This document shows positions 11,599-64,000 of a DNA stretch of 64,000 nucleotides, piece by piece. The notes beneath the pieces are model-generated. The model did no database searches. It was not told the origin of the DNA and was given only the letters and a program-made list of their open reading frames with translations. This DNA is from Chloroflexota bacterium (GTDB lineage Bacteria > Chloroflexota > Limnocylindria > P2-11E). Positions within the stretch are counted from its first letter, which is position 1; each line of letters begins with the position of its first letter. Location: contig JACPOT010000011.1 of the NCBI GenBank assembly GCA_016191385.1, positions 7,351-71,350 on the forward strand, given 5' to 3'. Both the position numbers and the translations under genes were made by a program.

Positions 11599-11626
11599 CG
11601 GTCGAAGCATATATAAAAGTTGAATT

Positions 11627-12558: not shown

Positions 12559-12572
12559 AGGGGAGCACGGAC

Positions 12573-26811: not shown

Positions 26812-26854
26812 GTCTCAACCCTAGCGCAGCGGTCGCGATACGATCGCGCGCCTT

Positions 26855-27797: not shown

Positions 27798-27802
27798 AGG
27801 CG

Positions 27803-49348: not shown

Positions 49349-49651
49349 GAAAGGTCCCCTTTCCCCGTCTCGTGTATCGATGATCGACTTATCAGGTAGC
49401 CGTAGTAGTGAGCGTGTGGACCATACGGCTTGCCCTCTCCGGGCGCATGGACACAAGGCCTGTGCTCCGCGGGTGTCGTGGATGAGCCGTGGAGAGATCG
49501 GGGGATCAGCGGGAGAGGGTTGCCGGGCATGTCGCGAAGCGGAACGATCGACACGCGCCCTGACGCCAACGCCTGCCCGCTTGTCCACAAATGGTGTCTG
49601 TTGTCCACACGAAATGGAGCCTTATCCACACAAAACCTCAGGAAATAGGCC
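49349..49651. promoter_or_regulatory. Chromosomal replication origin (oriC) region with DnaA-box cluster between dnaA and dnaN
   Basis: TTGTCCACA at 49581-49589 and 49601-49609, perfect TTATCCACA at 49622-49630 (spacing 20-21 bp, same orientation). Degenerate boxes GTGTGGACC (about 49424) and CGTGGATGA (about 49478). AT-richer 3' end aaaacctcaggaaatagg. Confidence 0.75.
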
Positions 49652-51055
49652 TCATTCGGCGTACAGCATCTCCCGGATCGAGCTGACCTCGCGCCGGAAA
49701 TCGTCGCTGTCGGCCATCTCGCGCTCGATCTTGTCGCAGCCGTGAAGCACGGTGGAGTGATCCCGGCCGCCGAGGGCCGCGCCGATGCGCAGCAGCGGGG
49801 CCTCGGTCTCCTCGCGCATCAGGTACATGGCGACCTGGCGCGGCAGGACGATCTGCTTGTCCCGCGCTTTCCCGCGCAGCTGTTCGACCGGGACCTGGTA
49901 GTAGCGGGCCACGATCTCGACGATCTTCTCGGGCGCGAGCGTCTGCTTCCGCGGGTTCTGCAGCAGGTGCTGGAGCATCTGCTGAGCGAGGTCCGTCGTG
50001 ACCGGGACGGCGTTGAGCGTCGCGTATGCGAGCACGCGGGTGAGCGCGCCCTCCAGCTCGCGGATGTTCGAGACGATCCTCTGCGCCAGGTAGTCGATGA
50101 CCGGGGGCGGGATCGCGGCGTTCTGCGCCTCCGCTTTCGCCCGCAGGATCGCGATCCGCGTCTCGAGATCCGGCGGCGATATGTCGGCGATGAGGCCCCA
50201 CTCGAACCGCGAGCGCAACCGCTCTTCCAGGCTCGCGATGGCCTTCGGCGGCCGGTCGCTCGAGAGGACGATCTGCTTCCCCTCTTCATGTATGGCGTTG
50301 AACGTGTGGAAGAACTCGTCCTGCGTGCCTTCCTTGCCCGCGATGAACTGGATGTCGTCGATGAGGAGCACGTCGATGCGCCGGTAGCGCTCGCGGAACT
50401 CCTCGGTCTTCTGGCTACGGATGGAATTGATGAACTCGTTCGTGAACTTCTCGCTCGTGGCGTACGCGACGCGCTTCCGCGGATGTCGCGACATGACCGC
50501 GTTGCCGATCGCGTGCATCAGGTGCGTCTTCCCGAGCCCGCTGCCCCCGTAGACGAAGAGCGGGTTGTAGGAATGGCCCGGCCGCTCCGCCACGGACAGC
50601 GCCGCGGCGTGCGCCAGACGGTTGTTGGAGCCCACGACGAATGTCGAGAACGCGTACCGCGGGTTGAGGACGGCGCTCGCCGCGCCCTCGCGGCGCTCGG
50701 CGGGCGGAGGCGCGCTCGGGGCCTTTTCCGGAACGATCCCGGGCTTCGGGCCACTCGCGGGCTTGGCGCCGGCGCCGGGGGACGTCACGAAACGGACCTC
50801 GACGGTGCGCCCGACGATGCGCTGGAGCGCCTGGCGGACCTGGGGCCGGAACTTCTCCTCGAGCCACTGCCGGGCGAAGGCGTTCGGGACCCCGACGCAG
50901 TAGACGTCGTCCTCTTCGGACACGATGACCGTGTCCTTGAACCACGTGTCGAAGTTCGCCTTGGTGATGGCGAGCTGGATCTCACCAAGGACGGCAGACC
51001 ATATCTGCTTCGCATCGACGCGGCCCTCTACGTTTCCGATCGTGACCTTCCCCAT
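49652..51055 (-). CDS. dnaA: Chromosomal replication initiator protein DnaA
   Basis: Domain I. AAA+ GGSGLGKTHLMHAIGN. Walker B LLIDDIQF. Domain IV HTH. Confidence 0.95.
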   Translation of the reverse strand: MGKVTIGNVEGRVDAKQIWSAVLGEIQLAITKANFDTWFKDTVIVSEEDDVYCVGVPNAFARQWLEEKFRPQVRQALQRIVGRTVEVRFVTSPGAGAKPASGPKPGIVPEKAPSAPPPAERREGAASAVLNPRYAFSTFVVGSNNRLAHAAALSVAERPGHSYNPLFVYGGSGLGKTHLMHAIGNAVMSRHPRKRVAYATSEKFTNEFINSIRSQKTEEFRERYRRIDVLLIDDIQFIAGKEGTQDEFFHTFNAIHEEGKQIVLSSDRPPKAIASLEERLRSRFEWGLIADISPPDLETRIAILRAKAEAQNAAIPPPVIDYLAQRIVSNIRELEGALTRVLAYATLNAVPVTTDLAQQMLQHLLQNPRKQTLAPEKIVEIVARYYQVPVEQLRGKARDKQIVLPRQVAMYLMREETEAPLLRIGAALGGRDHSTVLHGCDKIEREMADSDDFRREVSSIREMLYAE

Positions 51056-51240
51056 CTGCGACTGCGAGCCCGACGCGTTGCCACACCGCCATGGATCGCG
51101 AACGCGAAGCCACCCCGTAGAGGACCGCCCTTGGAAGCGCGCGAACTATATCGGACCGCTAGACTGATCGCACAACTCAGAGGGGACCGCATTGATCACT
51201 TCGATGGCGCCCCGCACATTTCCGAGAAGGGAACTCCGAC

Positions 51241-51381
51241 GTGAAGCGTACGTATCAGCCCAAACAACGCCGCCGCGCGCGCGTGCATGGCTTTCGCGCG
51301 CGCATGAGCTCGACCGGCGGCCGCGTGGTGCTCGCTCGTCGCCGCGCTCGCGGTCGCAAGCGTCTCACCGTCTCTCGCTGA
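51241..51381 (+). CDS. rpmH: 50S ribosomal protein L34
   Basis: GTG start. [46 protein letters not shown]. Not in the ORF track, which appears to list only ORFs of 60 aa or more. Confidence 0.9.
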
Positions 51382-51388
51382 CCCGTTC

Positions 51389-51724
51389 ATGCGGGCGGAA
51401 CGCCTGCGTCGCACGCGGGACATCGAGCTCGTGCGCCGTTCCGGCGATGTCCGGAGCGATCGCCATTTCACCGTGCGGTCGCGCCGCAACGGGCTCGACG
51501 TCGTGCGCGTCGCCGTGGCCTCTCCCCGCGCTGTCGGCGGTGCCGTGACGCGCAGTCGCGCCCGCAGGCGTGTCCGCGAGGCCATCCGCACACAGCTCTT
51601 GGCCCGTTCCGCGGCCCCCGGAACAGACCTGCTCGTCGTGACCCGCGCCCCCGCCGTCGACGCCCCGGCTGCGCTCCTGCGCGAAGCGGTCTCGCGGCAT
51701 CTCGACGCGGTGCTGGCCACGTGA
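51389..51724 (+). CDS. rnpA: Ribonuclease P protein component
   Basis: Position after rpmH. Basic RnpA-like sequence ERLRRTRDIELV. Confidence 0.85.
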   Translation: MRAERLRRTRDIELVRRSGDVRSDRHFTVRSRRNGLDVVRVAVASPRAVGGAVTRSRARRRVREAIRTQLLARSAAPGTDLLVVTRAPAVDAPAALLREAVSRHLDAVLAT

Positions 51725-51945
51725 CCGCCGTCGTTCTCGCCGCCCTGCGCTGGTACAAGCGCGCCGTGAGCCCGATGCTGCCGCCGGCCTGCCGCTACAC
51801 GCCGACCTGCTCGGAATACGCCACGGAGGCCATCGAGACCCACGGCCTCGCGGGCGGCACCGTGCTGGCCGTACGGCGCGTCCTCTCGTGCCACCCGTTC
51901 GCGCGGGGCGGGTACGACCCCGTCCCGCAGCGAGGGAGCCGCTAG
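51721..51945 (+). CDS. yidD: Membrane protein insertion efficiency factor YidD
   Basis: LRWYKRAVSP...CRYTPTCSEYA...HG is the YidD signature. GTG overlaps the rnpA stop. Confidence 0.85.
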   Translation: MTAVVLAALRWYKRAVSPMLPPACRYTPTCSEYATEAIETHGLAGGTVLAVRRVLSCHPFARGGYDPVPQRGSR

Positions 51946-52889
51946 TGGAGTTCCTGGCCCCCTACTGGAACTTCCTCCTGGTCCATCCGTTGCTCTCGCT
52001 GCTGATCGCCGCGTACGGCTTCCTCCGCGACTTCGGGCTCGCGATCGTCGTCGTCACGTTCGGGATCCGGCTCGCGCTCTACCCGCTCTTCGTGACGCAG
52101 ATCCGCTCGCAGCGCGCGATGCAGGAGGTCGGCCCCGCCCTCAACGAGCTCAAGGCCAAGTACGGCAAGGACCGCCAGCGCATGGCCGAAGAGCAGATGA
52201 AGCTCTACCGCGAACGAGGCGTGAACCCGGCCATGGGCTGCCTCCCGCTGCTGATACAGATGCCGATCCTCTTCGCGATGTACGCGGCGTTCATCCAGGC
52301 GCCGCTCCTCACGGGCGACCAGGTCCGCGAGCTGCTGTGGAACATCTCGTTCGTGCGCGACGCTCTCGCGCCGGGCCAGACCCTCGACACGACCGCGAAC
52401 TGGCTGCCGTGGATAGCGGACTGCCCGGGGCCGAATGGCACGACACTCCGTGGTCTCGCGTGTAACGACCAGCTCTACGTGCTGCCGATCCTCGCGGGCA
52501 TCTCGCAGCTGATCGCGTCGCTGATGGCGCAGCCGGCGAAGATGCCGGCCACCCAGGATCCGCAGGCCAAGATGATGCAATCGATGGTCTATTACTTCCC
52601 GATCATCACGGTCGTAATCGCGGCCGGGCTGCCCGCGGGTCTCGCGGTCTACTGGGTCAGCACCACGATCTTCCAGATCGCGCAGCAGTACTTCGTGACG
52701 GGATGGGGGCAGCTTCCGCGCTGGATCCCGTTCCTTCGCGGGATCCCCACGCCGGCGGATCGCGCCATCGCGCGCGGGCAGCGCGCCGCGATCGCCGAGG
52801 TCGAAGCGGACATGAGCGCGACGCCTGTCAAGGTGGAGGAGTCGGACGAGCGAAGCCGCGCGCGGCGGCGTCGCAGGAGGGGACGATGA
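51945..52889 (+). CDS. yidC: Membrane protein insertase YidC/Oxa1 (short form)
   Basis: 60 kDa_IMP motifs LYPLFVTQIRSQRAMQEV...MGCLPLLIQMPILFAMY. GTG start overlaps the yidD stop (TAGTG). Confidence 0.85.
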   Translation: MEFLAPYWNFLLVHPLLSLLIAAYGFLRDFGLAIVVVTFGIRLALYPLFVTQIRSQRAMQEVGPALNELKAKYGKDRQRMAEEQMKLYRERGVNPAMGCLPLLIQMPILFAMYAAFIQAPLLTGDQVRELLWNISFVRDALAPGQTLDTTANWLPWIADCPGPNGTTLRGLACNDQLYVLPILAGISQLIASLMAQPAKMPATQDPQAKMMQSMVYYFPIITVVIAAGLPAGLAVYWVSTTIFQIAQQYFVTGWGQLPRWIPFLRGIPTPADRAIARGQRAAIAEVEADMSATPVKVEESDERSRARRRRRRGR

Positions 52890-53785
52890 GCCCGATGCGC
52901 GGCGACGAATTCACCGGCCGCTCCGTCGAGGAGGCCATCGAGCGCGGCCTGCGCGAGCTCGGAAGGCGACGCGACCAGGTCGACATCGAGGTCCTCGAGA
53001 AGGGGAAGCCGGCGAACATGCTGGGCCTGGGCGGCGAGGACGCGCGCGTCCTGCTGTCCTACGAGGAGGCGGCCGAGCCGGAGGCGCAGCCCACGCCGGA
53101 TGAGGCCGAGGTCCCCCGGCGGCCCCAGGGCGAGCGCGTCGCGCGCCAGGAGGACGACGAAGAGGCCGCCGCCGCGTACGCGGAAGAGCTGCCCGTCGGC
53201 GCCGCGGTGATGACGGAGCTGCTCGAGGTCATGGGCATCCAGGCCGACGTGCAGATCGAGCAGATCCCGGGCCGCGAGGGCCTCGAGGTCGTCGGCCAGG
53301 ATCTCGGTGTGCTCATCGGACGCGGTGGTGAGAACCTCGTCGCCCTTGGGCAGGTCGTGTCCGCCATCACGTCGCGCCGCGTCGGCCGCACGGTGCACGT
53401 GCCCATCGACATCGAGGGCTACCGGCGCAAGCGCGAGGATCAGCTGCGCGAGGTGGCCCACCGCGTGGCGGAGCGGGTGAAGGCGACCGGCCAGGCCGTG
53501 ACGCTCGAGCCGATGCTGGCCTACGAGCGGCGCATCGTGCACCTCGTGGTGCAAGGGACGGCGGGCCTACGCACCGAGTCCGTGGGGATCGAGCCCAACC
53601 GGCGCGTCGTCATCCAGTCGACCGCGCCCGGGGCGCGCGGGCCCGCGGGTCCCCGGCCCTTCGTGCCGCGCGGTCCCGGCGGGCCCATCCGGCGGCCCGG
53701 CTCCGGCCCGCGGCGTACGTTCGGCGCACGGCCCGGCGGCTTCCAGTCCCGGTACGGGCCGCCCCGGAGGCCGAGCGGGTCCTGA
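52886..53785 (+). CDS. jag: Jag/KhpB-like RNA-binding protein (KH + R3H domains)
   Basis: Jag_N EAIERGLRELG, KH-like GxxG (LIGRGGENL), R3H LEPMLAYERRIVH. ATGA-coupled to yidC. Gly/Pro/Arg-rich C-terminal tail. Confidence 0.8.
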   Translation: MSPMRGDEFTGRSVEEAIERGLRELGRRRDQVDIEVLEKGKPANMLGLGGEDARVLLSYEEAAEPEAQPTPDEAEVPRRPQGERVARQEDDEEAAAAYAEELPVGAAVMTELLEVMGIQADVQIEQIPGREGLEVVGQDLGVLIGRGGENLVALGQVVSAITSRRVGRTVHVPIDIEGYRRKREDQLREVAHRVAERVKATGQAVTLEPMLAYERRIVHLVVQGTAGLRTESVGIEPNRRVVIQSTAPGARGPAGPRPFVPRGPGGPIRRPGSGPRRTFGARPGGFQSRYGPPRRPSGS

Positions 53786-53867
53786 GCGCGTTCCACCTCG
53801 GTCGCATCAGCCCCTGAACGCGTCAGCGTCTACAGACCCGCACCACTCCAGCCGCTAGCGTCGCGCC

Positions 53868-55094
53868 ATGCTCCAGCCGCACGTCCCCGAGGTCGTCCGC
53901 CGCAACTTCCGCATCGACCTCTTCGGTGGCATCTGCTCGGGGATCTACGTCGCCGTGGTCGTCGGATTCATGCCCGTGATCATCCGCCGCATGGGCGGAT
54001 CTACGACCGACGTCGCTCTCGTCGTGGCCGCGCCGTTCATCGGGCATCTGCTCTCGCCGATCGGGATCTACCTGCTCTCGGGACTGCCCCCGGTCCGCGT
54101 CGTGGCCGGTGTCGTCACGACCGGACGCGTGGTCTTCCTCGCGGGCGTGCTCGTCGCGACGACGCCGCTCATGCTCGGAGCGACGACGGTCGTCTTCTGG
54201 GTCGTCAACCTCGCGAACGTGGCCGCCTACACGACGGTCATGGCCGCGATCTATCCCGACCGCGAGCGAGCTCAGGCCATGGGCAAGGTCCGGATGGGCG
54301 CCGCGGTCGCCTCACTTGCCACCGCGGCGATCGCGGGGATCCTCTTCGACACGATGTCGGCGACGCTGGTCTTCGCGGCGGCCACGATCATCTCCTTCCC
54401 CGGCGCGGTCGGCTTTTTCTGGATCCGCGAGGAGGGCCGCGCCGAGGTGCCGCCCCGCCGGCCGATGTCGCGCATCGCCCGTGAGGTCTGGAGCGACCTG
54501 CGCTATCGCGACCTGCTCATCGCCCACAGCGTGTTCGGCCTCGGGAACCTCATGAACGCGACCGTCATCCCGCTGATGCTGGTCGACCACTTCGACGCCC
54601 CGAACACCTTCATCGGCCTGATGGCCGCGCTGACGTCGGCGGTCGCGGTCGTCTCCTACATCTTCTGGGGGCGGCTCATCGATCGAGGCTCATCGCTGAT
54701 GCTCTCGGCCTACAGCTGCGCGTTGCTCCTCGCCGTCCCGCTCACGTACCTGTTCGCGCCGACGGTGTGGTGGTTGCTGCCGGTCGCCGTGGTGACGGGC
54801 ATCGTGAACACGGGGTTCGAGATCACCTTCCACACGAACATCGTGCAGATCGCTCCGCGAGGACGCGTGCTCGATTACGCCACGGCGCAGTCTTTCGCCC
54901 TCGGGGTCCGCGGGACCGTCGCGCCGTTCCTCGCGTCGATCCTCATCGGCGTGTTCGGCGGCAGCGCGTACCCGGTCCTGTTCGTGATCATCACGCTGAT
55001 GGTCATCGGGACCGTGATGTACTACCGCGCCGCGCGCGAGTTCGCCCCGACGCGCGAGGCGCTCGTCGTGGAGACCGCCCCGGCTACTTCTTAG
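53868..55094 (+). CDS. MFS transporter
   Basis: 12 predicted TM helices. MFS-like loop between TM2 and TM3. Confidence 0.7.
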   Translation: MLQPHVPEVVRRNFRIDLFGGICSGIYVAVVVGFMPVIIRRMGGSTTDVALVVAAPFIGHLLSPIGIYLLSGLPPVRVVAGVVTTGRVVFLAGVLVATTPLMLGATTVVFWVVNLANVAAYTTVMAAIYPDRERAQAMGKVRMGAAVASLATAAIAGILFDTMSATLVFAAATIISFPGAVGFFWIREEGRAEVPPRRPMSRIAREVWSDLRYRDLLIAHSVFGLGNLMNATVIPLMLVDHFDAPNTFIGLMAALTSAVAVVSYIFWGRLIDRGSSLMLSAYSCALLLAVPLTYLFAPTVWWLLPVAVVTGIVNTGFEITFHTNIVQIAPRGRVLDYATAQSFALGVRGTVAPFLASILIGVFGGSAYPVLFVIITLMVIGTVMYYRAAREFAPTREALVVETAPATS

Positions 55095-55189
55095 AGGAGC
55101 CGAGCGAGGATCCGGCTGTGCCGGTCCGAGCGAGTCCGCAAGTAGCGGAGCGGCAGCCGCGAAGCGAGCCCCGCGGGGCGAGCCGACGG

Positions 55190-55972
55190 CTAACGAATGG
55201 GGATGCCGTTCGAGCGCATGGCGGTCGCGAAGCGCTGCGCGATCAGCTCGTAGCCCGCGTCGGAGGGATGGAATCCGTCCGCTGACACCGTCACGCTGCT
55301 CATGAGCTCCGCTGACCCGCTGTTGAGGTCGACGACACGCACCCGACCCGGGTATCTGGCGGCGAGCGTGATGATGCCGGCGTTGAAGGTCTGCACCGTC
55401 GCGAGCATGACCAGGGGGTCCACGTTGGCGTACGCCGGGACCGCGCGAAGGTCCGGGACCGTGCCGACGAAGACCCGTGCGCCCGTCCCCTGCACCAGGG
55501 CGGCGACGATCGCGTCGAGGGCCGCGGCATGGTCCTTCGGCGGCACCCCGGCGTTGATGTCATTGACCGCGAGCCACACCGTGACGATCGTGGGCTGCTC
55601 GGCGATGGCGATGGGCAGCTGCTCGCGCTGCGCTTGCGCGGTGAGCGACCCGGACACGCCGATATTGCGATAGGTGCTGCCGGGCGGCAGCAGCGCCGCG
55701 AGCCGCGACGGCCACGACCCCGTGCTCGGGTCCAGCGAGCCGATGCCGACGGTGTCCGACGCGCCGATCGCGACGTAGTGGACCGCGCCCGAGGCGCGCA
55801 CGACCGGCGTCCCCGAGGGGATCGCCGTCGCGCTGCCCGACGGTGCCGGTGTGCGCGCCGGCGGTGGGCTCGCCGGCGGCCGTGTCGGCGTCGCGGTGCG
55901 CGGGGCCGGCGATGGAGCGGCTGCGGGTGCGCATGCGGCGACGATCACGACCATCACGAGCAAGGCTCGCAT
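55190..55972 (-). CDS. SGNH/GDSL hydrolase family lipoprotein
   Basis: Lipobox IVAACAP. Block I GASDTVG. Block V DGFHPS. Pro-rich linker. Confidence 0.8.
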   Translation of the reverse strand: MRALLVMVVIVAACAPAAAPSPAPRTATPTRPPASPPPARTPAPSGSATAIPSGTPVVRASGAVHYVAIGASDTVGIGSLDPSTGSWPSRLAALLPPGSTYRNIGVSGSLTAQAQREQLPIAIAEQPTIVTVWLAVNDINAGVPPKDHAAALDAIVAALVQGTGARVFVGTVPDLRAVPAYANVDPLVMLATVQTFNAGIITLAARYPGRVRVVDLNSGSAELMSSVTVSADGFHPSDAGYELIAQRFATAMRSNGIPIR

Positions 55973-56049
55973 CGATCACGAGCGTATGCGCCGGTCGCCG
56001 GCCGACCGAGCCCGATGCGGTACGATCCACCTGTCCCTCGAGGGACCGC

Positions 56050-56400
56050 GGGGATGCGTGGTTTCGACAGGGCGGGAAAGCGATCCGTTGCGAGCCGGGG
56101 GTTTGCCGTTGACCCCGTGAACCTGACGGCAGGCAGACAACTGCCAACACTTCTTACGCCCTCGCTGCTTAAACAGTGAGCGTTCTGCCGGTCCACCCTC
56201 CGCGGGCCGGTAAGAGCGATAAAAGCGGAGGTGCTGCCCGCCGACGTCCGGTGAGCGGGCCCAAGACAACGGGACTGGCTTGGACCGAGAGCCCGTCGGT
56301 GGGCGCTCGGACCAGCGAGACAAAAGATCGCCGACGAGGCTTCGTGGACGCGGATCGTTCGATCGTCTTGGACGGGGAGTTCGACCCTCCCCCATCTCCA
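56050..56400 (+). ncRNA. ssrA: Transfer-messenger RNA (tmRNA, SsrA)
   Basis: 5' GGGGATGCGTGGTTTCGACAGGG pairs with 3' CATCTCC (G3:U wobble), followed by discriminator A. T-arm GGGGAG-TTCGACC-CTCCCC. Tag ORF GCC AAC ACT TCT TAC GCC CTC GCT GCT TAA (56143-56172) encodes ANTSYALAA. Confidence 0.85.
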
Positions 56401-56822
56401 CAGGGACCTGGAGCCCGACGGTCGGCTGAGCCCGAAAGCTGAAGATGGCGCGATCGAGCCGATCTGAAGGCTCGATCCGTCAATCTGAAAGCAGCGCTGG
56501 CGTCGGGGCTCGGCCGGAGCGCGAGATTCCCGAAAGGAATTAGGGACGGCGCCGGGTGTCATGGTGAGCTCCTGCGCCAACGTGCGTTTTCACATTGAGC
56601 CCCGGCCGGACTCACGGGCTTTCACCTCGCTCGATGTGAAAGCGGGTTTGGCGCTGGAGCTCACGACGAGCCTTCATATCGCCGGATCCGAAGTCCTGCT
56701 CCGGCGTGAAGTGAAGGCCGGTGTGGCGCGGCAACGGGCTCAATCTCGGCTTGCATCCCCAGCCCATCGCCGCGGTCGCTAAGGGTCTTGCCAACGTGGT
56801 GAGGACGTGGTAGATAGAACTG

Positions 56823-58436
56823 ATGTTCGGTACACGACGGGAGTCTGAGTTGGGCCGCGGTGGCGGACCTACGCTTTCGCGGCAGGACGCGGAGCGCGTG
56901 AAGGAGGCCGGCGAGACGGTCACCAAGGTGAACAGCCGCGTCACCACTGCGACGACGCAGGTCACGACGGCGATGGACCGGGTCAAGACGCTGACGAAGG
57001 CGCGCGATGATGCGCGACACGAGCGCGTCCGTGCGGAGACAGCCGATGGTGAAGTCGCAAACGCCCGCAAGGCCGTCACGGCTGCCGAAGGAGCGATCGC
57101 GAAGGCGGCTGCGGACATCGTGCGCGTCGCGCAGGAGCTTGCGCGACTCTCTCCCGCCGAACGCGATCCGCTTACCCGCGAGCTCAAGGAATTGCCAGCC
57201 CTCCGGGCACGGGCCGCTGAGCTCCGGACGAAGGGCGCGCTCCTCGAGGACTCGCTCGGCCGCGTCACGAAGCTGCAGGCCGAGCTCGCCCCGCTGCGCC
57301 TGACGCTGCCGCCAGACGAGCGGACGCGTCGCAGGACGCGGCAGCGCGACCTAGCGGCGGAGCGTGAACGTCTGCAGCGCGCGCTCGAGGTCGCGCGCAC
57401 TGGCTACGCGCAGAGCAAGCAGGCCCGCGAACGGGCGGACACCGCATTCGCGAACGCTCGGACCAAGCGCAGCGACCTGCTTGGCAAGGTGCAGCAGCAC
57501 CGCGAGCGCGCGGGCGGGTTCCGATCGCTCGCCGCGGTGCGTCTCGCGGACGTTCCCGAGGCGTGGCGCGAGCGGGCGCAAGCCGCTGATGCGACTCTGG
57601 TGAACGAGCTCGAAACGCGCTTCAACGCCCTCGCCGACAGCGAGAGCCGATACGAGGAGCTCGTCGAGGCGGAACAGACCCATGGTCAGTTCGCGGCCGA
57701 GGTCGCCTCCATCGAAGAGCGCATTGAGCGAATCCCGACCGAGCAGCGGATTCCCGTCGAAACCGCTCAGGCCGAGCAGCGCGACGCGCTCGCGTCGCGG
57801 ACGGTCCAGGAGAAGGAACGCGACGCCGCCAACAAGCGTGTGCACGACCTCGAGCAGCAGCGCGAGCGCAGGACCGAGCTCGAGGGCGAGGTCGGCGCCG
57901 CGCGCCGTCGTGCGCACCTCTACGGACGGCTTGAGGACTTGCTCGGACGTCGGCGCCTGCAAGCCTTCCTGATCGACGAGGCGCTCCGCGGCGTCCAGGC
58001 GTTCGCGAACGAGACCCTCGGGCGGGTCTCGGACCACCAGCTTGAACTCCACCTGCGCCGTGAGTCGACCGCGGGTGGCGACGAGGAGATCGTCATCCGC
58101 GCGACGGACCACTCCTCGGCCGACGCACCGCTGGACATCGAGTTCATCTCGGGCGGGCAGAAGTTCCGCGTCGCCGTCGCGCTCGCGGCTGGCATTGGGC
58201 AGTACGCCGGCGGCATGCGCGGCGCGCCGCGGGCGCTCATCGTTGACGAAGGCTTCGGCAGCCTCGATGTGCGGGGTCGCCAAGAGATGATCCAGGAGCT
58301 CCACAGCCTCGCGCAGTACCTCGAGCGGGTGATCGTCGTCAGCCACCACGACGACTTCCGCGACCGCCTGCTCTTCCCGAGCCGCTACGTGATCAGCCGG
58401 GACGGCGACGCAACACTCGTGGAGCGCCTGGTGTGA
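56823..58436 (+). CDS. SbcC/Rad50 C-terminal-like ATPase half: coiled coil plus ABC signature/Walker B head, no Walker A
   Basis: About 400 aa of Ala/Arg/Glu coiled coil, then FISGGQKFRVAVALAAGI (signature), RALIVDEGFGSLD (Walker B/D-loop), RVIVVSHHDDF (H-loop). In-frame stop 4 codons upstream of the ATG. 3' end overlaps the next gene (GTGA). Confidence 0.7.
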   Translation: MFGTRRESELGRGGGPTLSRQDAERVKEAGETVTKVNSRVTTATTQVTTAMDRVKTLTKARDDARHERVRAETADGEVANARKAVTAAEGAIAKAAADIVRVAQELARLSPAERDPLTRELKELPALRARAAELRTKGALLEDSLGRVTKLQAELAPLRLTLPPDERTRRRTRQRDLAAERERLQRALEVARTGYAQSKQARERADTAFANARTKRSDLLGKVQQHRERAGGFRSLAAVRLADVPEAWRERAQAADATLVNELETRFNALADSESRYEELVEAEQTHGQFAAEVASIEERIERIPTEQRIPVETAQAEQRDALASRTVQEKERDAANKRVHDLEQQRERRTELEGEVGAARRRAHLYGRLEDLLGRRRLQAFLIDEALRGVQAFANETLGRVSDHQLELHLRRESTAGGDEEIVIRATDHSSADAPLDIEFISGGQKFRVAVALAAGIGQYAGGMRGAPRALIVDEGFGSLDVRGRQEMIQELHSLAQYLERVIVVSHHDDFRDRLLFPSRYVISRDGDATLVERLV

Positions 58437-60109
58437 TCAAGACAGGACATGACAGCGGGCGAGGATCTGAGGACCCTGCGCTGTCCAGTGTCGAAATGAA
58501 CCACGTCCCCACGCAGCCCACCCTCGGCCTCAGTGAGCCCGGCACGACTGCTGTGTTGCAGGACGGCGCGTCGGGCCTTGCGACGCACTCAGACAACTCA
58601 CCGTTCGTCTCACCCGATGGGCCTACGACGACGGCGAGCGCCGCGCCGGCCGATGAAGCAGAGCCCGAGCGCGACCCGACGCGAGCGCTCCGGGCGAAGG
58701 CTCTCGCGTGCACGGCTCCGCTCCACGACCTCCAACGCAACCGCGGGCTTCGCGGGTGGGACGCCTTTGACCTGTACGACCTCTCGCTCGTCGCGATCGA
58801 CCTCGTCGTGGACAAGATGGGCTTCGACTCCGGGATCGGTGCCGATGAGCTCGTCGGGGCACTCGCGAGCCGTGCCCGCAAGCAGGTGCCCGGCACTGAC
58901 TTCGAGCAGGCCCGGGCCGTGGCCGAGGGCGTTGTCGGCGCGCTCATCCGACCAAGTGTCGCCGAGTACACATCAGAGCTCGAGGATGTCCGACGGCAGT
59001 TCGAGTTCGCGCTGCTGACCGAGCACGAGCGCACCGAAGGCACGATCTACCTGCGCGCGACGAGCCAGGCCATCAACGTCCTGGTCGGCGGATTGAACGT
59101 GGACGTCGAGTCCGCGCAAATGGCCGCGGAGGCGACGCTCGAGCACCTCCTGCGCCGTCAGCGGCTTGCCGATGCCGCGGTCCCCGCGCGCGAGGCGAAG
59201 ATCCGCTCGGTCCAGTACGCCGACTACGTGCGCCGACTCATCGAGGACACCAGGCGGGACGTGCGCCGCGCCGGCTGGCGCGAGCAGGTGCCCGAGCGGC
59301 TCTCCGAGATCCGTGGGCACCTGACCGAACGGATGGACACCGAGCGCAAGCTCCTTGCGGCGATCCAAGAGCAGCGCGGATCCGCCGAGCGCGAGGACCT
59401 GCGTGAACACGCCGCGCGCCTTGTGGAGATCGTGAACGACTGCTTCGACCGCCACTCCGAGCTGCACCGCGTCACCCTTGAGGCGGCGCGGGTCTACATC
59501 GAGGAGCGCGATCGCCAAACGTTCGGTCGTGTCAGCGCAATCCGAGGTGTTGACCTGACCGACGAACTCCTTCTACCAGCGCTCGCGTCGCCGATCGATC
59601 GCGTCGAGCCGGTGATCGCAGCCGTGGCCTCGCGGCTGATCGGAATGGGTCCTGGTAGTGGCCAGAAGGTGACCCCATGGCGACAGCTTTCCCTCACGTG
59701 GTTCGTGCGCGATCTGCTCCATGAGGTCCAACACCGCGAGGAGCTCGGCGAACCCGTCACGGACCCCGCGTGGGAGGAGCCAGCTCCAGACCCGCTCGAG
59801 TTCGATGAGCATACGCGCGGCTCTGTGGGCGAGCTCCTCGACGCGCTGACCACTCCGCAGCGCCTCTCGCGGCTGCTGGTCACCGCGCTCGAGCGTGGGT
59901 TCAACACCGCCGACTTGCTGCGACTGCGCGCGCTCGTCGCCACCGCACCGGAGATCCTCGCCACGGACCCAGAACAGCGCCTGCTCATCGCCGCTCCGAT
60001 CGCGGCTTCCTTCCGCCTAGACGGGTTCGCCGGTGACGACCTGCTCGTCGGTCTTGCGACCGTCCTCGCCGACGAGGCTCCTGGCGCCGCGGGGAGGACG
60101 CCACATTGA
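58433..60109 (+). CDS. Hypothetical protein, 558 aa (JetA/MksF-like by size and position only)
   Basis: No recognised motif. Helical, Glu/Arg/Leu-rich. Translationally coupled on both sides. Confidence 0.5.
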   Translation: MIKTGHDSGRGSEDPALSSVEMNHVPTQPTLGLSEPGTTAVLQDGASGLATHSDNSPFVSPDGPTTTASAAPADEAEPERDPTRALRAKALACTAPLHDLQRNRGLRGWDAFDLYDLSLVAIDLVVDKMGFDSGIGADELVGALASRARKQVPGTDFEQARAVAEGVVGALIRPSVAEYTSELEDVRRQFEFALLTEHERTEGTIYLRATSQAINVLVGGLNVDVESAQMAAEATLEHLLRRQRLADAAVPAREAKIRSVQYADYVRRLIEDTRRDVRRAGWREQVPERLSEIRGHLTERMDTERKLLAAIQEQRGSAEREDLREHAARLVEIVNDCFDRHSELHRVTLEAARVYIEERDRQTFGRVSAIRGVDLTDELLLPALASPIDRVEPVIAAVASRLIGMGPGSGQKVTPWRQLSLTWFVRDLLHEVQHREELGEPVTDPAWEEPAPDPLEFDEHTRGSVGELLDALTTPQRLSRLLVTALERGFNTADLLRLRALVATAPEILATDPEQRLLIAAPIAASFRLDGFAGDDLLVGLATVLADEAPGAAGRTPH

Positions 60110-60858
60110 CGACCGACACAGCCCGCGAGGTTGGCCGATTGATCGGCTTCGGGTCCCAGCCGAAACTCGTCCCCGGACGGGATCCCGAGTACCGCGAGCT
60201 CGTGGCGCGGTACCGGAATGAACCGGAGTTCCGTGACACGTTCGACCGCACGGCCAAGGGCATGGGGCTCGAGGTCCTCGACTGTTCAGAGATCCACGGG
60301 CTGGTGCTCGCCGCGGACTCGGACGAGTCGCCCTTCCACCTCAGACTCGACGAATTCGCGCAAATGGCAGCGGAGGAACGCCACCGTTACGCGCTGGTCT
60401 TCCTGTCCATCGCTGCCGCGAGCTACCCACGCGCCGACGCACTCGAGGACGAGACCGGACCGCTGCCGCAGATCACGGTGAGCCAGGTCGTGCGCTTCAT
60501 GAATCAGCTCGCAGCGCGAGTCGCAGATGAGCGGGGCAAGAACCACGATCCAGACCCGCCCGCGGACGAGCCGCTGCACCAGCGCTTGTACCAAGCCATA
60601 CAGACCTGGGCCGACACCGCGGCTACCGCGGACCAGCGCAGCCACCCGCGCCAGAAATCTGGCATGGTCCGGCGGTCTTTGCGGTGGCTCGCGGCCAACG
60701 GCTGCGCCGACGATGTCGGCGAGGACGCCTTCCGCATGCGCAGCCGTTTCCGGCTCTTGGTCCTCGACGGCATCGGCGCCCTGCCCAGACAGACAGGCAC
60801 CACTTCCGTTGGCGAGGCGCTTTCCTTCCTACGGACGCTCTCGGGCCACGACGTATGA
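60106..60858 (+). CDS. Hypothetical protein, 250 aa (JetB/MksE-like by size and position only)
   Basis: TTG start overlaps the upstream stop (TTGA). Stop overlaps the downstream ATG (ATGA). No motif recognised. Confidence 0.5.
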   Translation: MTTDTAREVGRLIGFGSQPKLVPGRDPEYRELVARYRNEPEFRDTFDRTAKGMGLEVLDCSEIHGLVLAADSDESPFHLRLDEFAQMAAEERHRYALVFLSIAAASYPRADALEDETGPLPQITVSQVVRFMNQLAARVADERGKNHDPDPPADEPLHQRLYQAIQTWADTAATADQRSHPRQKSGMVRRSLRWLAANGCADDVGEDAFRMRSRFRLLVLDGIGALPRQTGTTSVGEALSFLRTLSGHDV

Positions 60859-63800
60859 AGCTGCAGATTTCGCGGATCTACCTTGCGGGCATCGGCCACA
60901 CGGAGGCGCGAGCGGATCCGCTCACGTTGACGCTCCTCGGCCACGCCGACGCGAACCCTGAGCACAGCTTGCTGTTCCTGCGGAACGCGGGCGGCAAGAC
61001 GAGCCTCATGCGCGAGCTCTTCTCGATGCTCCACCCCGCGATCGTTGAGCGCATCGGACGTGAGGACACGGCGGGACGTACCGGGAACCTGGTCGACTAC
61101 ATCCTCCGGACCGACACGGCCCACGTCGTCGTGGAGTGGCGGCGCGTCGACAGCGGCAAGCTGTTCGACGACTGGACGCTGCTGACAGGCATGGTCGCGG
61201 AGTGGCGGGGCGAACACGTGACCCGGAGCATCGCCGATCTCAACCGCGCCTGGTACTCGATCAGTGGGCCGTTCGAGCGCGCGTCACTCGAGCAGCTCCA
61301 GTTCTTCATCGAGAAGGACGGCGCGCGGCACCGCATACGACTGCGTGCGTTCCGTGAGCAGCTTGCCGCGCTTGCCCGCGGACGCGGCGCGCCCGCCGTC
61401 GAAACGTTCGACGTGCAGCAGCGCTGGGTCGAGCACCTCGACAGCCTCGGGCTCGACCGTGTGCTCCTGAGGTACATGGGCGAGATGAACCACAGCGAGG
61501 CGGGCGCCTCCGCGATCGCGCACTGGCGTACGGAAGTCGACTTCATCCGCTTCTTCGTCAAGACCGTCATCGACCCAGGCGAGGTCGAGAGCCTCCAAGG
61601 TGAGATCGCTGCGACGGCCGACAAGATCCGGCGTCTGCCTGACCTAGAACGGCAACTCCGCTTCGAGCAGAGCGTCCACGCCGAACTGGGTCCGCTCGCC
61701 GAGAGCGTCAGAGCGCACCGGCGCGCCGAGGAGACCTACGGGCAAGTCCGTTCCGATGCGCGCTTGCTCCTGCGCGGCTTCGAGGCCCGCGAAGGAATCG
61801 AGCGCGAGCGCGCAACGGCGTCCGAGCAGCGGGCGCGCGAGCGCGGACGCGCCGCGCAGCAGCACGAGAGCAGCGCCGACCGCTGGCAGGACATCGCACG
61901 CGAGCATGACCAGACCGCCGCACGGTTCGCGCAAACGGAAGCTGAGGAGTCCTATGCGGAAGCGCAGCGCCGCGACGAGCAGGGCGGTCGGGACGTCCAG
62001 GCGTGGCGGCTGACCGAGGACCTCGCGCGGCGTGACGCGGCGGAAGCTGAGCTAGGCGCGATCGAGGAGCTTGCGGCGAAAGAACGCGAGCGCTTCGCCC
62101 CGCTCGAACAGCAACGTGACGAAGCAGCGCGCGCTCTCGCCTCGACCCTCACTGCGACGGCCGCGCGCGCCGACACGAACGCCACCGATGCTAACGCGCG
62201 TGCCGGCAGCGCCGCCGATCTCGCTCGTGCGAAGCGGAAGGAGCAGACCGACGCCCTCACCGAGAGCGCAGGCCTTGAGGCCGACGCGCGCGCCGATGAG
62301 GCGCGCCTGGAGAGCGCGCGCTCGCAGCGTCAGCGGCTCGTCGCGAAGGGCTTCGTCAAGGCCGACGAGCCAGCCCGGGTCGCCCTTGCGAGGGAGACCG
62401 CCCGAGAGAGCGACGCGCACGACCGCCGCACGGCGGCCGAGCGCGAACGGGGCACGCTTGCGACGGAACGGCTGGATCTGGAGCGCGAGGGCCGCAGCGA
62501 ATCCGACGAGCGCATCCGCCTCGAACGCAGCCACACCCAGACAGCGAGAGAACTCGATGTCGCGGAGGCAGAGCGCGCCGAGCTCGCCGCCGATCCACTC
62601 GTCCTAGAAGTCGCGCAGGAAACGATCGCAATCGATATTGAGGCCCTCGGCACGGCCGTCGCCGAGCGCCTTCGTGTACGTGCCGAGGCTGGGACGCAGC
62701 GCGCTCGCGAACTCGACCTGGCCGCAGCCAGCGACCGGCGTGCGATCAGCGGCCTGACTGAGCAGCACCTGCTGCCGGCGCCGCTCGAAGTGGAAAGCGC
62801 CCTGGATGCGCTCGCCGGTGCGGGGATCAGCGCCGCGCTCGCCGCCACGCACTACGCGGCGAACGCGATGAACGCGGACGAACGCACGCGTGCCTCCGCC
62901 GCGCGGCCTGACCTGTTGGCCGGGATCGTCCTCTCGCGCGCGGCTGACCTTCCGGAGGCACGCCGCGTCCTCGACGCGACGCCGCTCACACGCAGCGTGC
63001 CCCTGGTGGTGGGACCCGCGCAGGTCCTCTACGAGGCGTCTGCGCGGCCCGATGACGCGAGCTTCGTCCTGCCGCCCTCGGACGCGGCGTGGGACACGAG
63101 CGCCGCCGAAGTGGAACTCCTCCGCCTGACTGAGCAGACCACCGCAATCGACGCGCAGCGCGCAGAGCTGCTCGGACGCGCGGACACAGAATCGCAGCTC
63201 GCGCGCCGTCTCCTCGAGCACCTCGACCGCTACCCCGTTGGCTTCGTTGCTGCGCAACGCGCGCTGCGAGCTGGCTACGCGAGTGAGCTCGAGCGGCTCG
63301 GGACTCGCGAGAGCCAGCGGATCTCACGGTTGCAGCAGATCGATACGCGCGACGACGAGCTCCAAGCCATAGTCCGCGGCTCACACGAGATCGAAACGGA
63401 TGCCGCTGCGAAGCGCGCCGCGCTCGCGGAGCTCGTAGAAACGGAACAACGTGTCGCCGGGGTCGAAACGCTGATCGTGCAGCGGCGAGAGGAAGCGCGG
63501 GCAATGCGGGAGCTCGCGGAGGTCGCGCGACACGAGGAGGAGCAAGCGCAGGCGGAAGGCAGACGCGCCGAGGACGAGTCCCGTGACGCGCGTCGTCTGG
63601 CGACCGAGCTTCGGGCCGAGGTTGCGAGGCTGGCCGTCGCGCCCGGTTCAGAGGCCGCCTTCGACCGCGGGGCGCTGCCAGAGCTGCGTGCGCGATACGA
63701 GGAGCTTGACCAGCGCGTCAGGCGGAGTTTCAGCGAGTCAGAGATCCTTCAGCGGCTCGACTTTCAGGGCCGGCAACTCGCGACCATGCGGGAGCGAATC

Positions 63801-64000
63801 GCTCGGGAGCCCGCCGACGTACAGGCCCGCGCCGGAGAGCTCGTTGCTACCGCCGACGGCACGACCGCCGAGGGAAGGGCCGCCGCGCTGCGCCGGGCCC
63901 AAGTCGCTAGCGAGCAGGCGTCCCAGGCCCGGCGGGAGGCCTATGCGGTTCTTGAGGACGCCAAGCGAGCCCTACGTGAGATCACGGAGACCATCGAGCG
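60855..64000 (+). CDS. SMC-like ATPase, N-terminal head with deviant P-loop followed by >900 aa coiled coil (partial, continues beyond window)
   Basis: LLFLRNAGGKTSLMRELFSML (P-loop similar to SbcC GPNGAGKS). Very long Ala/Arg/Glu/Leu heptad-rich region. No stop before the window end. Confidence 0.7.
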   Translation, partial: MKLQISRIYLAGIGHTEARADPLTLTLLGHADANPEHSLLFLRNAGGKTSLMRELFSMLHPAIVERIGREDTAGRTGNLVDYILRTDTAHVVVEWRRVDSGKLFDDWTLLTGMVAEWRGEHVTRSIADLNRAWYSISGPFERASLEQLQFFIEKDGARHRIRLRAFREQLAALARGRGAPAVETFDVQQRWVEHLDSLGLDRVLLRYMGEMNHSEAGASAIAHWRTEVDFIRFFVKTVIDPGEVESLQGEIAATADKIRRLPDLERQLRFEQSVHAELGPLAESVRAHRRAEETYGQVRSDARLLLRGFEAREGIERERATASEQRARERGRAAQQHESSADRWQDIAREHDQTAARFAQTEAEESYAEAQRRDEQGGRDVQAWRLTEDLARRDAAEAELGAIEELAAKERERFAPLEQQRDEAARALASTLTATAARADTNATDANARAGSAADLARAKRKEQTDALTESAGLEADARADEARLESARSQRQRLVAKGFVKADEPARVALARETARESDAHDRRTAAERERGTLATERLDLEREGRSESDERIRLERSHTQTARELDVAEAERAELAADPLVLEVAQETIAIDIEALGTAVAERLRVRAEAGTQRARELDLAAASDRRAISGLTEQHLLPAPLEVESALDALAGAGISAALAATHYAANAMNADERTRASAARPDLLAGIVLSRAADLPEARRVLDATPLTRSVPLVVGPAQVLYEASARPDDASFVLPPSDAAWDTSAAEVELLRLTEQTTAIDAQRAELLGRADTESQLARRLLEHLDRYPVGFVAAQRALRAGYASELERLGTRESQRISRLQQIDTRDDELQAIVRGSHEIETDAAAKRAALAELVETEQRVAGVETLIVQRREEARAMRELAEVARHEEEQAQAEGRRAEDESRDARRLATELRAEVARLAVAPGSEAAFDRGALPELRARYEELDQRVRRSFSESEILQRLDFQGRQLATMRERIAREPADVQARAGELVATADGTTAEGRAAALRRAQVASEQASQARREAYAVLEDAKRALREITETIE

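What the first reader, a model, noticed from the sequence alone, without database searches (positions are those of the whole stretch)
56823..64000. tmRNA-adjacent, fully translationally coupled four-gene operon built from SMC/SbcC-like ATPase pieces: candidate Wadjet/Mks-like or novel defence system
Four + strand genes start about 420 bp after ssrA. Every junction is a 4-nt start/stop overlap (58433/58436 GTGA, 60106/60109 TTGA, 60855/60858 ATGA), so they are one unit.

Gene 1 (537 aa) is a long coiled coil ending in a complete C-terminal ABC head half (FISGGQKF signature, ALIVDEGFGSLD Walker B, VVSHHDDF H-loop) but has no Walker A anywhere. This is a 'half-SMC'.

Gene 4 (>1048 aa, truncated by the window) is the opposite half-pattern: an N-terminal deviant P-loop (FLRNAGGKTSL) followed by an enormous coiled coil.

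Genes 2 (558 aa) and 3 (250 aa) have no motif I can name. Sizes and order of genes 2-3-4 fit JetA-JetB-JetC (MksF-MksE-MksB-like) of Wadjet-type condensin plasmid-defence systems. A toprim JetD/MksG gene would then be expected just past 64000.

The extra upstream orphan SbcC-C-terminal gene is not part of any architecture I know. It could be a new accessory subunit (supplying a second signature/Walker B head in trans) or the remnant of an sbcC gene cut by an insertion at the tmRNA hot spot. Composition matches the host GC, so the locus is not a recent foreign arrival.
Basis: partly seen in the sequence, partly recalled or inferred. Interest (0 to 1): 0.8.

Follow-up and report, generated by a model that had tools for sequence, protein, structure and literature searches.

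The report
Wadjet-III operon beside truncated sbcC relic
Genes 2-4, plus a fifth gene just past the window, are an ordinary type III Wadjet (JetABCD) anti-plasmid system in a Chloroflexi genome, and the odd "half-SMC" gene in front of it is most likely the leftover 3' half of a Rad50/SbcC repair gene, not a new subunit.

Summary
The sequence facts mostly hold. tmRNA lies at 56050-56403. Four + strand ORFs follow, with GTGA/TTGA/ATGA overlaps. Gene 1 has an ABC signature, Walker B and H-loop but no Walker A.

Genes 2 and 4 match the PADLOC models JetA3 (1e-104) and JetC3 (1e-117; 1e-176 for the full 1480 aa). A 99.98%-identical contig extends the locus. Gene 3 is the syntenic JetB, present in nearly all of 160 related loci long enough to show it.

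Gene 1 is not part of Wadjet. None of 125 related jetA loci with enough upstream DNA has an SbcC-like gene. Its relatives are full-length proteins of about 920-1040 aa with Walker A and a CxxC zinc hook. In 5 contigs (4 distinct loci) these are the last gene of a nurA-like/herA-like/sbcD/sbcC cassette. Gene 1 lacks the N-terminal half and the hook (it has no cysteines). No sbcD, herA, nurA or sbcC 5' half lies in the 64 kb window. The only other "half" found, P0022, is a recent independent truncation.

The gene 1/jetA overlap probably reflects an over-extended jetA start. The verdict is a known system plus a gene relic, of low interest.

The parts
56050..56403 (+). ssrA (tmRNA), tag peptide ANTSYALAA. 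It marks the left edge of the variable region.
   Evidence: ARAGORN. Rfam RF00023, 112.8 bits, E=4.7e-45.
56404..56822 (.). 419-nt spacer between ssrA and gene 1. No recognisable gene, RNA family, promoter or terminator match. No repeat of the ssrA 3' end was found downstream as far as the end of jetD.
   Evidence: No frame shows coding-type GC3.
56823..58436 (+). Gene 1, a 5'-truncated SbcC/Rad50-type ORF (537 aa; alternative start GTG 56898 gives 512 aa). It keeps the descending coiled-coil arm and the C-terminal ABC head half (signature FISGGQ, Walker B LIVDEGFGSLD, H-loop VVSHH). It lacks the Walker A half and the CxxC zinc hook. Most likely a gene relic.
   Evidence: Pfam SbcC_Walker_B and NCBIfam sbcC/Rad50, C-terminal only. 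An HMM of 41 full-length relatives aligns only its positions 403-923. No Cys, against 41/41 relatives with CxxC. AF2 model at pLDDT 79.7; top PDB matches are the separate C-terminal chain of P. furiosus Rad50 (1ii8_B, 1f2t_B, 1us8_B).
58433..60109 (+). jetA, the type III Wadjet kleisin-position subunit. The likely true start is ATG 58496 (537 aa). Conserved core is residues 85-549.
   Evidence: PADLOC JetA3 PDLC00567, E=9.7e-105. The NCBI protein is 537 aa. GC3. More than 800 relatives confirmed by tblastn in the public collections: 571 and 240.
60106..60858 (+). jetB, the KITE-position subunit of Wadjet III. TTG start overlaps the jetA stop, with GGGGAGGA 8 nt upstream.
   Evidence: A homologue lies between jetA and jetC in nearly all related loci that extend far enough, at 29-52% identity. 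There is no direct profile hit. At most 6 of 21 homologues hit JetB3 models, at about 1e-3.
60855..64000 (+). jetC, the SMC-like ATPase of Wadjet III, cut by the window end. The full protein is 1480 aa and would end at about 65297 in window numbering. jetD (358 aa, Toprim) would follow at about 65294-66370, overlapping by 4 nt.
   Evidence: PADLOC JetC3, E=1.1e-117 for the window part and 1.1e-176 for the full protein. JetD3, E=1.1e-88, and Pfam JetD_C. Contig L001 is identical except for 3 differences over 13.8 kb. C-terminal FSGGQ and LILDNPLG; JetD IENAATY and GDLDPEG.

Best explanation
The locus holds two unrelated things lying side by side, directly downstream of ssrA.

(1) jetA-jetB-jetC-jetD is a complete type III Wadjet system. 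By analogy with the characterised type I and II systems, JetABC would be an SMC-type loop-extruding complex that senses small circular DNA. It would then license the Toprim nuclease JetD to cut that DNA, restricting plasmids. This mechanism is inferred, not shown here.

(2) Gene 1 is the 3' part, about 55-58%, of a Rad50/SbcC-type gene. In relatives this gene is the last of a nurA-like/herA-like/sbcD/sbcC end-resection cassette. A deletion or rearrangement at the ssrA-proximal edge of this variable region removed nurA, herA, sbcD and the sbcC 5' half, which carried Walker A, the ascending coiled coil and the zinc hook. Without a P-loop, a hook, a coiled-coil partner strand or a nuclease partner, the product cannot act as an SbcC. 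It is best read as a still-open relic that may be co-transcribed with jetABCD but is not part of it.
For: Wadjet:
- PADLOC JetA3 at 1e-104, JetC3 at 1e-117 (window part) and 1e-176 (full), JetD3 at 1e-88. Pfam JetD_C.
- Toprim E and DxD, and the JetC signature and Walker A/B motifs.
- The same order A-B-C(-D) in 160 related loci.
- 4-nt overlaps at A/B, B/C and C/D.

Gene 1 as a relic:
- The closest relatives (up to 55% identity) are SbcC/Rad50 proteins of about 920 aa with Walker A at residue 37.
- The exhaustive HMMER search finds only full-length forms (about 920 and about 1020-1040 aa) or shorter entries, of which the two checked are cut by contig ends.
- An HMM of 41 full-length proteins covers gene 1 only from model position 403 to 923.
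- 41/41 relatives have the CxxC hook; gene 1 has no Cys.
- 5 of 5 contigs examined (4 distinct loci) with upstream sequence carry 355-361 aa / 611-623 aa / SbcD 394-396 aa / SbcC 918-923 aa. The L006 614-aa protein matches D. radiodurans HerA (PDB 7f6d_B, 3e-46) and the L006 357-aa protein matches NurA weakly (0.048).
- No nurA, herA, sbcD or sbcC 5' part lies anywhere in the 64 kb window.
- 0 of 125 jetA loci with more than 1.7 kb upstream have an SbcC-like gene. This includes 9 loci at 53-56% JetA identity.
- The closest relative of gene 1, P0002, is not followed by jetA.
- Such relics occur independently. P0022 (521 aa) is 82.6% identical, without gaps, to residues 534-1016 of the full-length P0255.
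- The only coding difference between the two assemblies is L373F in gene 1, at a position that is Leu in at least 90% of the family. This is anecdotal.
Against: - Gene 1 is an uninterrupted 537-codon ORF.
- In the retained region, every invariant column of the family alignment is by construction kept by gene 1, and every nearly invariant column that has a gene 1 residue is listed with gene 1's residue. Only the four hook columns are missing. This fits either a recent truncation or continued selection.
- Its GC3 (0.84) is coding-like, and close to that of the jet genes.
- It is in the same orientation as jetA and at most 59 nt from it, and GTG 58433 has a Shine-Dalgarno-like GGAG.
- There is no close relative (closest 55%), so dN/dS could not be measured.
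- The rest of the genome could not be inspected for a 5' half.
Confidence: 0.75

Rival explanations
1. Split Rad50/SbcC. Gene 1 is the functional C-terminal half of a two-piece SbcC. The N-terminal half, and sbcD, are encoded elsewhere in the genome. The two halves assemble through the coiled coil and act in DNA repair, independently of Wadjet.
For: - The head motifs are intact and the ORF is open.
- The best structural matches are the C-terminal chains of Rad50 catalytic domains that were crystallised as two separate polypeptides (1ii8_B, 1f2t_B, 1us8_B). Assembly in trans is therefore physically possible.
Against: - No N-terminal half or sbcD lies within 64 kb.
- Every relative whose 5' end could be examined is single-chain, except the truncated P0022 and the frameshift-split P0015; several shorter database entries were not checked.
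- The zinc hook that holds two Rad50 arms together is absent.
- The one other apparent split, P0015, is a frameshift within one gene.
- P0022 has no N-terminal half nearby either.
Confidence: 0.1
2. New Wadjet accessory. Gene 1's product docks on JetC (or JetA) and supplies a second signature/Walker B half-head in trans, modulating the type III complex.
For: - Same strand, adjacent to jetA, possibly coupled to it.
- GC3 similar to the jet genes.
- JetC of this clade has Asn instead of the catalytic Glu after Walker B, while gene 1 keeps D-E.
Against: - 0 of 160 related Wadjet-III loci carry such a gene, although all 103 recovered JetC relatives share the same D-N Walker B.
- JetC is complete, with its own C-terminal head.
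- Gene 1's sequence affinity is to Rad50/SbcC of a repair cassette, not to JetC. The PADLOC JetC hits for gene 1 are 0.014-0.029 and lie in the coiled coil only.
- The overlap with jetA is probably an ORF-calling artefact.
Confidence: 0.05
3. Assembly chimera. The ssrA/gene 1 junction is a mis-join in a metagenome-assembled contig, and the real genome has an intact sbcC.
For: The source is a MAG. The breakpoint cannot be placed more precisely than 56823 to about 57020.
Against: - A separately produced Logan assembly of run SRR12113392 has the same junction, within a 13.8 kb collinear match.
- No repeat that could cause a mis-join was found around the junction.
- It is not known whether the two assemblies used the same reads.
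Confidence: 0.03

Closest known systems
Type III Wadjet (JetABCD; also called MksBEFG or EptABCD). It is described as one of three Wadjet types, and types II and III are said to be largely uncharacterised (bioRxiv 10.1101/2025.03.10.642339, read).
   Same: - Four genes in the order jetA-jetB-jetC-jetD with overlapping stops and starts.
- JetA3, JetC3 and JetD3 profile matches at E of 1e-88 to 1e-176.
- JetC has an N-terminal P-loop, a very long coiled coil and a C-terminal signature plus Walker B.
- JetD has Toprim E and DxD.
   Different: - The host is a Chloroflexi MAG.
- JetB is too divergent for a direct profile hit.
- The JetC Walker B is followed by Asn, not Glu. This holds throughout this actinobacterial/Chloroflexi clade.
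- By sequence search, JetA, JetB, JetC and JetD have no relative with a solved structure.
Rad50/SbcC of the NurA-HerA-Mre11(SbcD)-Rad50(SbcC) end-resection gene cluster. This cluster is classical in archaea. HerA-NurA is known in Deinococcus (PDB 7f6d).
   Same: - Gene 1's residues from about 67 to 537 are collinear with the post-hook coiled coil and C-terminal head of this family, at 38-55% identity.
- The signature, Walker B, D-loop and H-loop are intact.
- The predicted fold matches the Rad50 C-terminal head segment.
   Different: - Gene 1 lacks the N-terminal about 400-500 residues (Walker A, Q-loop, ascending coil) and the CxxC hook.
- It lacks the neighbouring sbcD, herA and nurA genes. 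It is a fragment, not a member.
MukBEF/MksBEF chromosomal condensins
   Same: An SMC-like ATPase plus kleisin-position and KITE-position genes in one operon.
   Different: Here a JetD Toprim nuclease gene follows, and the best profile matches are the Wadjet type III models. No Pfam MukB/MukE/MukF or DUF3584/DUF4194/DUF3375 hit was obtained.

Membership tests
Wadjet (JetABCD), type III | JetA subunit (kleisin position) upstream of JetB | tested here: met
   PADLOC JetA3 PDLC00567, E=9.7e-105, residues 85-549 against model positions 14-489 of 504. The kleisin fold itself was not tested.
Wadjet (JetABCD), type III | JetB (KITE, winged-helix) subunit between JetA and JetC | tested here: inconclusive
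   - No PADLOC or Pfam hit for the window protein.
- At most 6 of 21 syntenic homologues hit JetB3 models, at about 1e-3.
- A homologue lies in this position in nearly all related loci that reach far enough.
- The single-sequence AF2 model is unusable, pLDDT 41.7.
- The profile search against the PDB found nothing.
Wadjet (JetABCD), type III | JetC SMC-like ATPase: N-terminal Walker A, long coiled coil, C-terminal signature and Walker B | tested here: met
   - PADLOC JetC3, E=1.1e-176 end to end for the 1480-aa protein from L001.
- Motifs RNAGGKTS, FSGGQ and LILD.
- Caveat: the residue after the Walker B Asp is Asn, in all 103 relatives recovered.
Wadjet (JetABCD), type III | JetD Toprim nuclease gene directly after jetC | tested here: met
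   - L001 15113-16189, a 4-nt overlap with jetC.
- PADLOC JetD3, E=1.1e-88. Pfam JetD_C at 23.9 bits, above the 22-bit cut-off.
- Motifs IENAATY and GDLDPEG.
- It lies outside the window, at about 65294-66370.
Wadjet (JetABCD), type III | Restriction of circular plasmid DNA | not testable with these tools
   Needs a transformation or conjugation assay with the cloned locus.
SbcC/Rad50 ATPase (for gene 1) | N-terminal Walker A / P-loop head half | tested here: not met
   No GxxxxGK[ST] in gene 1; relatives have it at residue 37. The HMM of the full-length family aligns only from position 403.
SbcC/Rad50 ATPase (for gene 1) | CxxC zinc hook at the coiled-coil apex | tested here: not met
   41/41 full-length relatives have CxxC between residues 400 and 500. 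Gene 1 has no cysteine.
SbcC/Rad50 ATPase (for gene 1) | C-terminal signature motif, Walker B, D-loop, H-loop | tested here: met
   - FISGGQKF, LIVDEGFGSLD and VVSHH are conserved with the family.
- Pfam SbcC_Walker_B at 28 bits, above the 27-bit cut-off.
- The fold matches the Rad50 C-terminal head chains, TM 0.71-0.76 on the target.
SbcC/Rad50 ATPase (for gene 1) | Adjacent SbcD/Mre11 nuclease partner gene | tested here: not met
   No sbcD, herA or nurA lies in the 64 kb window. They are present directly upstream of sbcC in 5/5 contigs examined (4 distinct loci).

The most novel reading that the evidence does not exclude
Gene 1 is not dead. It would be a retained hookless "half-Rad50", co-expressed with a Wadjet-III whose JetC lacks the canonical catalytic glutamate (Walker B D-N). 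It would engage the JetC or JetA head as an extra ABC half-site, for example as a regulator or a trans-acting catalytic lobe. That would be a lineage-specific fifth Wadjet subunit recruited from a repair gene.
Probability: 0.04. Interest if true: 0.65.

Novelty: new member of a known kind. Interest (0 to 1): 0.17.

Why it matters
There is little new here. The locus adds a Chloroflexi example of type III Wadjet next to ssrA, and shows how a decaying neighbouring gene can look like a "fifth subunit".

Two points may be useful to specialists:
- This Wadjet-III clade has no sequence-detectable relative with a solved structure (JetA, JetB, JetC and JetD all searched). It universally carries Asn in place of the Walker B catalytic Glu in JetC.
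- Bacterial nurA-like/herA-like/sbcD/sbcC cassettes exist whose first two proteins escape Pfam.

Neither point is specific to this window.

Tried and rejected
1. "Conserved half-SbcC family".
- Gene 1 and P0022 (a 521-aa orphan) both lack the N-terminal half and the hook. They start at similar alignment columns, share several residues and pair in an NJ tree.
- Rejected: the exhaustive HMMER search found the full-length P0255 (1027 aa, Walker A, CSRC hook). It is 82.6% identical to P0022 without gaps, so P0022's truncation is recent and independent.
- The shared residues also occur in full-length proteins.
- No DNA similarity exists upstream of the two genes.

2. P0015 (551 aa) looked like a half-gene. 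It is a frameshift-split full-length gene.

3. P0002 and P0049 looked like short forms. Both are cut by contig ends.

4. The first genome-contig scan, with the single JetA sequence, found nothing. It was repeated with an alignment.

5. Looking up the NCBI version of JetA (P0121), to extend the MAG contig past jetD, found it not on record. The right end of the island therefore stays unknown.

6. The search for an att-type repeat of the ssrA 3' end, up to the end of jetD, gave only chance 13-14-mers.

7. The promoter/terminator scan of 55900-61000 found nothing. It is uninformative for this phylum.

8. Six-frame inspection of the ssrA-gene 1 spacer found no long ORF (longest stop-to-stop piece 97 aa) and no coding-type GC3. 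The pieces were not scanned against protein families.

9. The single-sequence AF2 model of JetB had pLDDT 41.7 and was unusable.

10. Placing gene 1 residues 1-66 on the family HMM gave scores only marginally above shuffles, at inconsistent positions. The breakpoint is therefore bounded only to 56823 to about 57020.

Full report
OBSERVATION

ARAGORN and Rfam place a tmRNA gene at 56050-56401/56403. Four + strand ORFs follow:
- 56823-58436 (537 aa)
- 58433-60109 (558 aa)
- 60106-60858 (250 aa)
- 60855 to the window end (more than 1048 aa)

Gene 1 has the ABC signature, Walker B and H-loop but no Walker A. Gene 4 begins with the deviant P-loop RNAGGKTS. The raw observation is therefore correct.

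Two qualifications apply.

First, the gene 1/gene 2 overlap rests on taking the most upstream start, GTG 58433.
- NCBI annotates the same protein from ATG 58496, giving 537 aa.
- All relatives begin to align at residue 84-85.
- GC3 is 0.57 in the first 21 codons, against 0.81-0.83 afterwards.
- GTG 58433 does have a GGAG 8 nt upstream, so the matter is not closed. A 59-nt gap is nevertheless at least as likely as translational coupling.

Second, bulk GC matches the host. GC3 of gene 1 and the jet genes is 0.81-0.84, while most genes in the window are at 0.90-0.95.

GENES 2-4 ARE A TYPE III WADJET SYSTEM

- PADLOC gives JetA3 at E=9.7e-105 for gene 2 and JetC3 at E=1.1e-117 for the truncated gene 4.
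- An exact-protein look-up of gene 3 returned a 16.2 kb Logan contig, L001. It matches window 50181-64000 with 3 differences in 13.8 kb.
- In L001, JetC is 1480 aa and matches JetC3 end to end (E=1.1e-176).
- JetC is followed, with a 4-nt overlap, by a 358-aa protein that matches JetD3 (E=1.1e-88) and Pfam JetD_C.
- JetC has a C-terminal FSGGQ signature and an LILD Walker B. JetD has Toprim-type IENAATY and GDLDPEG.
- Gene 3 has no direct profile hit. A homologue at 29-52% identity lies between jetA and jetC in nearly all of 160 related loci that reach far enough: 80 genomes, mostly Streptomyces and other Actinomycetota, and 80 metagenome contigs. At most 6 of 21 homologues touch JetB3 models weakly.
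- A single-sequence AF2 model of gene 3 was unusable.

The source organism is a Chloroflexi MAG.

According to the paper read (bioRxiv 10.1101/2025.03.10.642339), Wadjet comes in three types. JetABC is an SMC DNA sensor and JetD a Toprim nuclease. Type III is largely uncharacterised. Consistent with that, no PDB relative was found by sequence for JetA, JetB, JetC or JetD. The mechanism (loop extrusion, recognition of small circles, JetD cleavage) is inferred by family membership, not shown here.

GENE 1 IS A 5'-TRUNCATED RAD50/SBCC GENE FROM AN UNRELATED CASSETTE

Its relatives are full length:
- Its homologues in a 5.8-billion-protein database are SbcC/Rad50-type proteins. Nearly all are about 920 aa, with Walker A at residue 37.
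- A profile of 41 full-length relatives aligns gene 1 only to model positions 403-923.
- Solid collinear homology starts at about residue 67, just after the position of the zinc hook.
- All 41 relatives have the CxxC hook. Gene 1 has no cysteine.
- An AF2 model (pLDDT 79.7) shows long helices and a C-terminal α/β lobe. Its best PDB matches are the separately expressed C-terminal chain of P. furiosus Rad50.

The full-length genes sit in a repair cassette:
- In every contig examined with enough upstream sequence (5 of 5, representing 4 distinct loci), the full-length gene is the last of a four-gene cassette. The sizes are 355-361 aa, 611-623 aa, SbcD 394-396 aa and SbcC 918-923 aa.
- The L006 614-aa protein matches D. 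radiodurans HerA (PDB 7f6d_B, E=3e-46). The L006 357-aa protein matches NurA weakly (E=0.048). The third protein is SbcD.
- This is a bacterial NurA-HerA-Mre11-Rad50 arrangement.
- None of nurA, herA, sbcD or the sbcC 5' half is detectable anywhere in the window.

IS GENE 1 A WADJET COMPONENT?

- None of the 160 related jetA loci has any SbcC-like sequence within up to 10 kb.
- 125 of them have more than 1.7 kb upstream of jetA, including nine with 53-56% JetA identity.
- The closest relative of gene 1, P0002 (55% identity), is followed by non-coding sequence, not jetA.

The adjacency is therefore unique to this genome.

A HYPOTHESIS THAT WAS TAKEN SERIOUSLY AND THEN REJECTED

P0022 is an orphan 521-aa protein in other metagenomes. 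It also lacks the N-terminal half and the hook, starts at a similar position and groups with gene 1 in a distance tree. This suggested an old, maintained "half-SbcC" family.

An exhaustive HMMER search of 1.84 billion representatives with a gene 1 + P0022 profile found, as its top hit, P0255. This is a 1027-aa protein with Walker A and a CSRC hook. It is 82.6% identical, without gaps, to P0022 residues 28-510.

P0022 is therefore a recent and independent truncation. The common ancestor of P0022 and gene 1 was full length.

Other apparent short forms have simple explanations. P0002 and P0049 are cut by contig ends, and P0015 is a frameshift-split gene.

WHAT REMAINS IN FAVOUR OF FUNCTION

- The ORF is open for 537 codons.
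- In the retained region, gene 1 carries the listed residue at every invariant and nearly invariant family column except the four hook columns.
- GC3 is coding-like.

This is compatible with a recent truncation. Selection cannot be excluded, because no close orthologue exists for a dN/dS test. The single coding difference between the two assemblies is L373F in gene 1, at a position that is Leu in at least 90% of the family. This is anecdotal, but points towards relaxed constraint.

CONTEXT

- The genes upstream of ssrA are core genes: rnpA, yidD, yidC, jag, an MFS transporter and a GDSL lipase.
- Relatives of this Wadjet also sit beside tRNA genes. L093 has tRNA-Gly about 440 nt upstream of the jetA match. 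L009 has tRNA-Val about 150 nt after the jetD match.
- Together with the lower GC3, this fits a horizontally acquired, decaying island at the ssrA hot spot.
- No integrase and no att repeat was found in the sequence available, which ends at the jetD stop.

VERDICT

The locus is a known system (Wadjet type III, a new Chloroflexi member) plus a truncated Rad50/SbcC relic. The "novel accessory subunit" reading is not supported.

Confidence is about 0.95 for Wadjet III and about 0.75 for gene 1 being a non-functional relic.

Noticed in passing
L001 10674-15116 (jetC; window 60855 to about 65297), and the JetC genes of L008-L167: The JetC Walker B reads LILDNPLG. The residue after the Walker B Asp is Asn, not the catalytic Glu of SMC, MukB and Rad50 heads. 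All 103 JetC relatives recovered from the related loci have D-N-P (LFLDNPIG in 94 of them). It is a clade-wide trait that raises the question of how, or whether, this Wadjet-III SMC hydrolyses ATP.
   Followed up: partly
L002 5890-12769; L006 5893-12772; L007 2082-8961; L172 3891-10769; L173 3864-10757: - A conserved bacterial four-gene cassette: nurA-like (355-361 aa), herA-like (611-623 aa), sbcD, sbcC (918-923 aa).
- The first two proteins have no Pfam, NCBIfam or PADLOC hit. They were recognised only through PDB 7f6d (HerA 3e-46, NurA 0.048).
- The neighbours are often defence- or mobile-element-like: DUF4011/AAA_11/AAA_12 helicase, HTH plus M78 peptidase, HEPN, Uma2, TIR-WD40, relaxase.
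   Followed up: partly
L003 10001-11566 (also L004, L005): P0022 is a second, independent orphan 3' half of an SbcC-type gene. It is 82.6% identical to residues 534-1016 of the full-length P0255, with no sbcD or N-terminal half nearby. It suggests that 5'-truncated open relics of this gene family recur.
   Followed up: yes
L093 8307-8378; L009 17877-17952: Closely related Wadjet-III operons also abut tRNA genes. tRNA-Gly lies about 440 nt upstream of the jetA match in L093, and tRNA-Val about 150 nt after the jetD match in L009. This parallels the ssrA adjacency here and points to tRNA/tmRNA-targeted islands.
   Followed up: no
window 56309 and 56321 (tmRNA); 57941 (gene 1): The only three differences between the window and the Logan contig over 13.8 kb are two in the tmRNA gene (G/A and a 1-nt indel) and one nonsynonymous change in gene 1. 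That change is TTG to TTC, L373F, at a position that is Leu in at least 90% of the family.
   Followed up: partly
window 10262-13826, 26769-29329, 48218-49588: A few other long ORFs in the window also have GC3 of 0.84-0.87, against 0.90-0.95 for most genes. They may be further acquired genes. They were not examined.
   Followed up: no
L168 1-2471: An sbcC homologue is split into a 262-aa and a 551-aa ORF (P0015) by a frameshift (frames 1 and 3, collinear with the full-length protein). It is either a pseudogene or a sequencing error. It shows that database "half-SbcC" entries need checking.
   Followed up: yes
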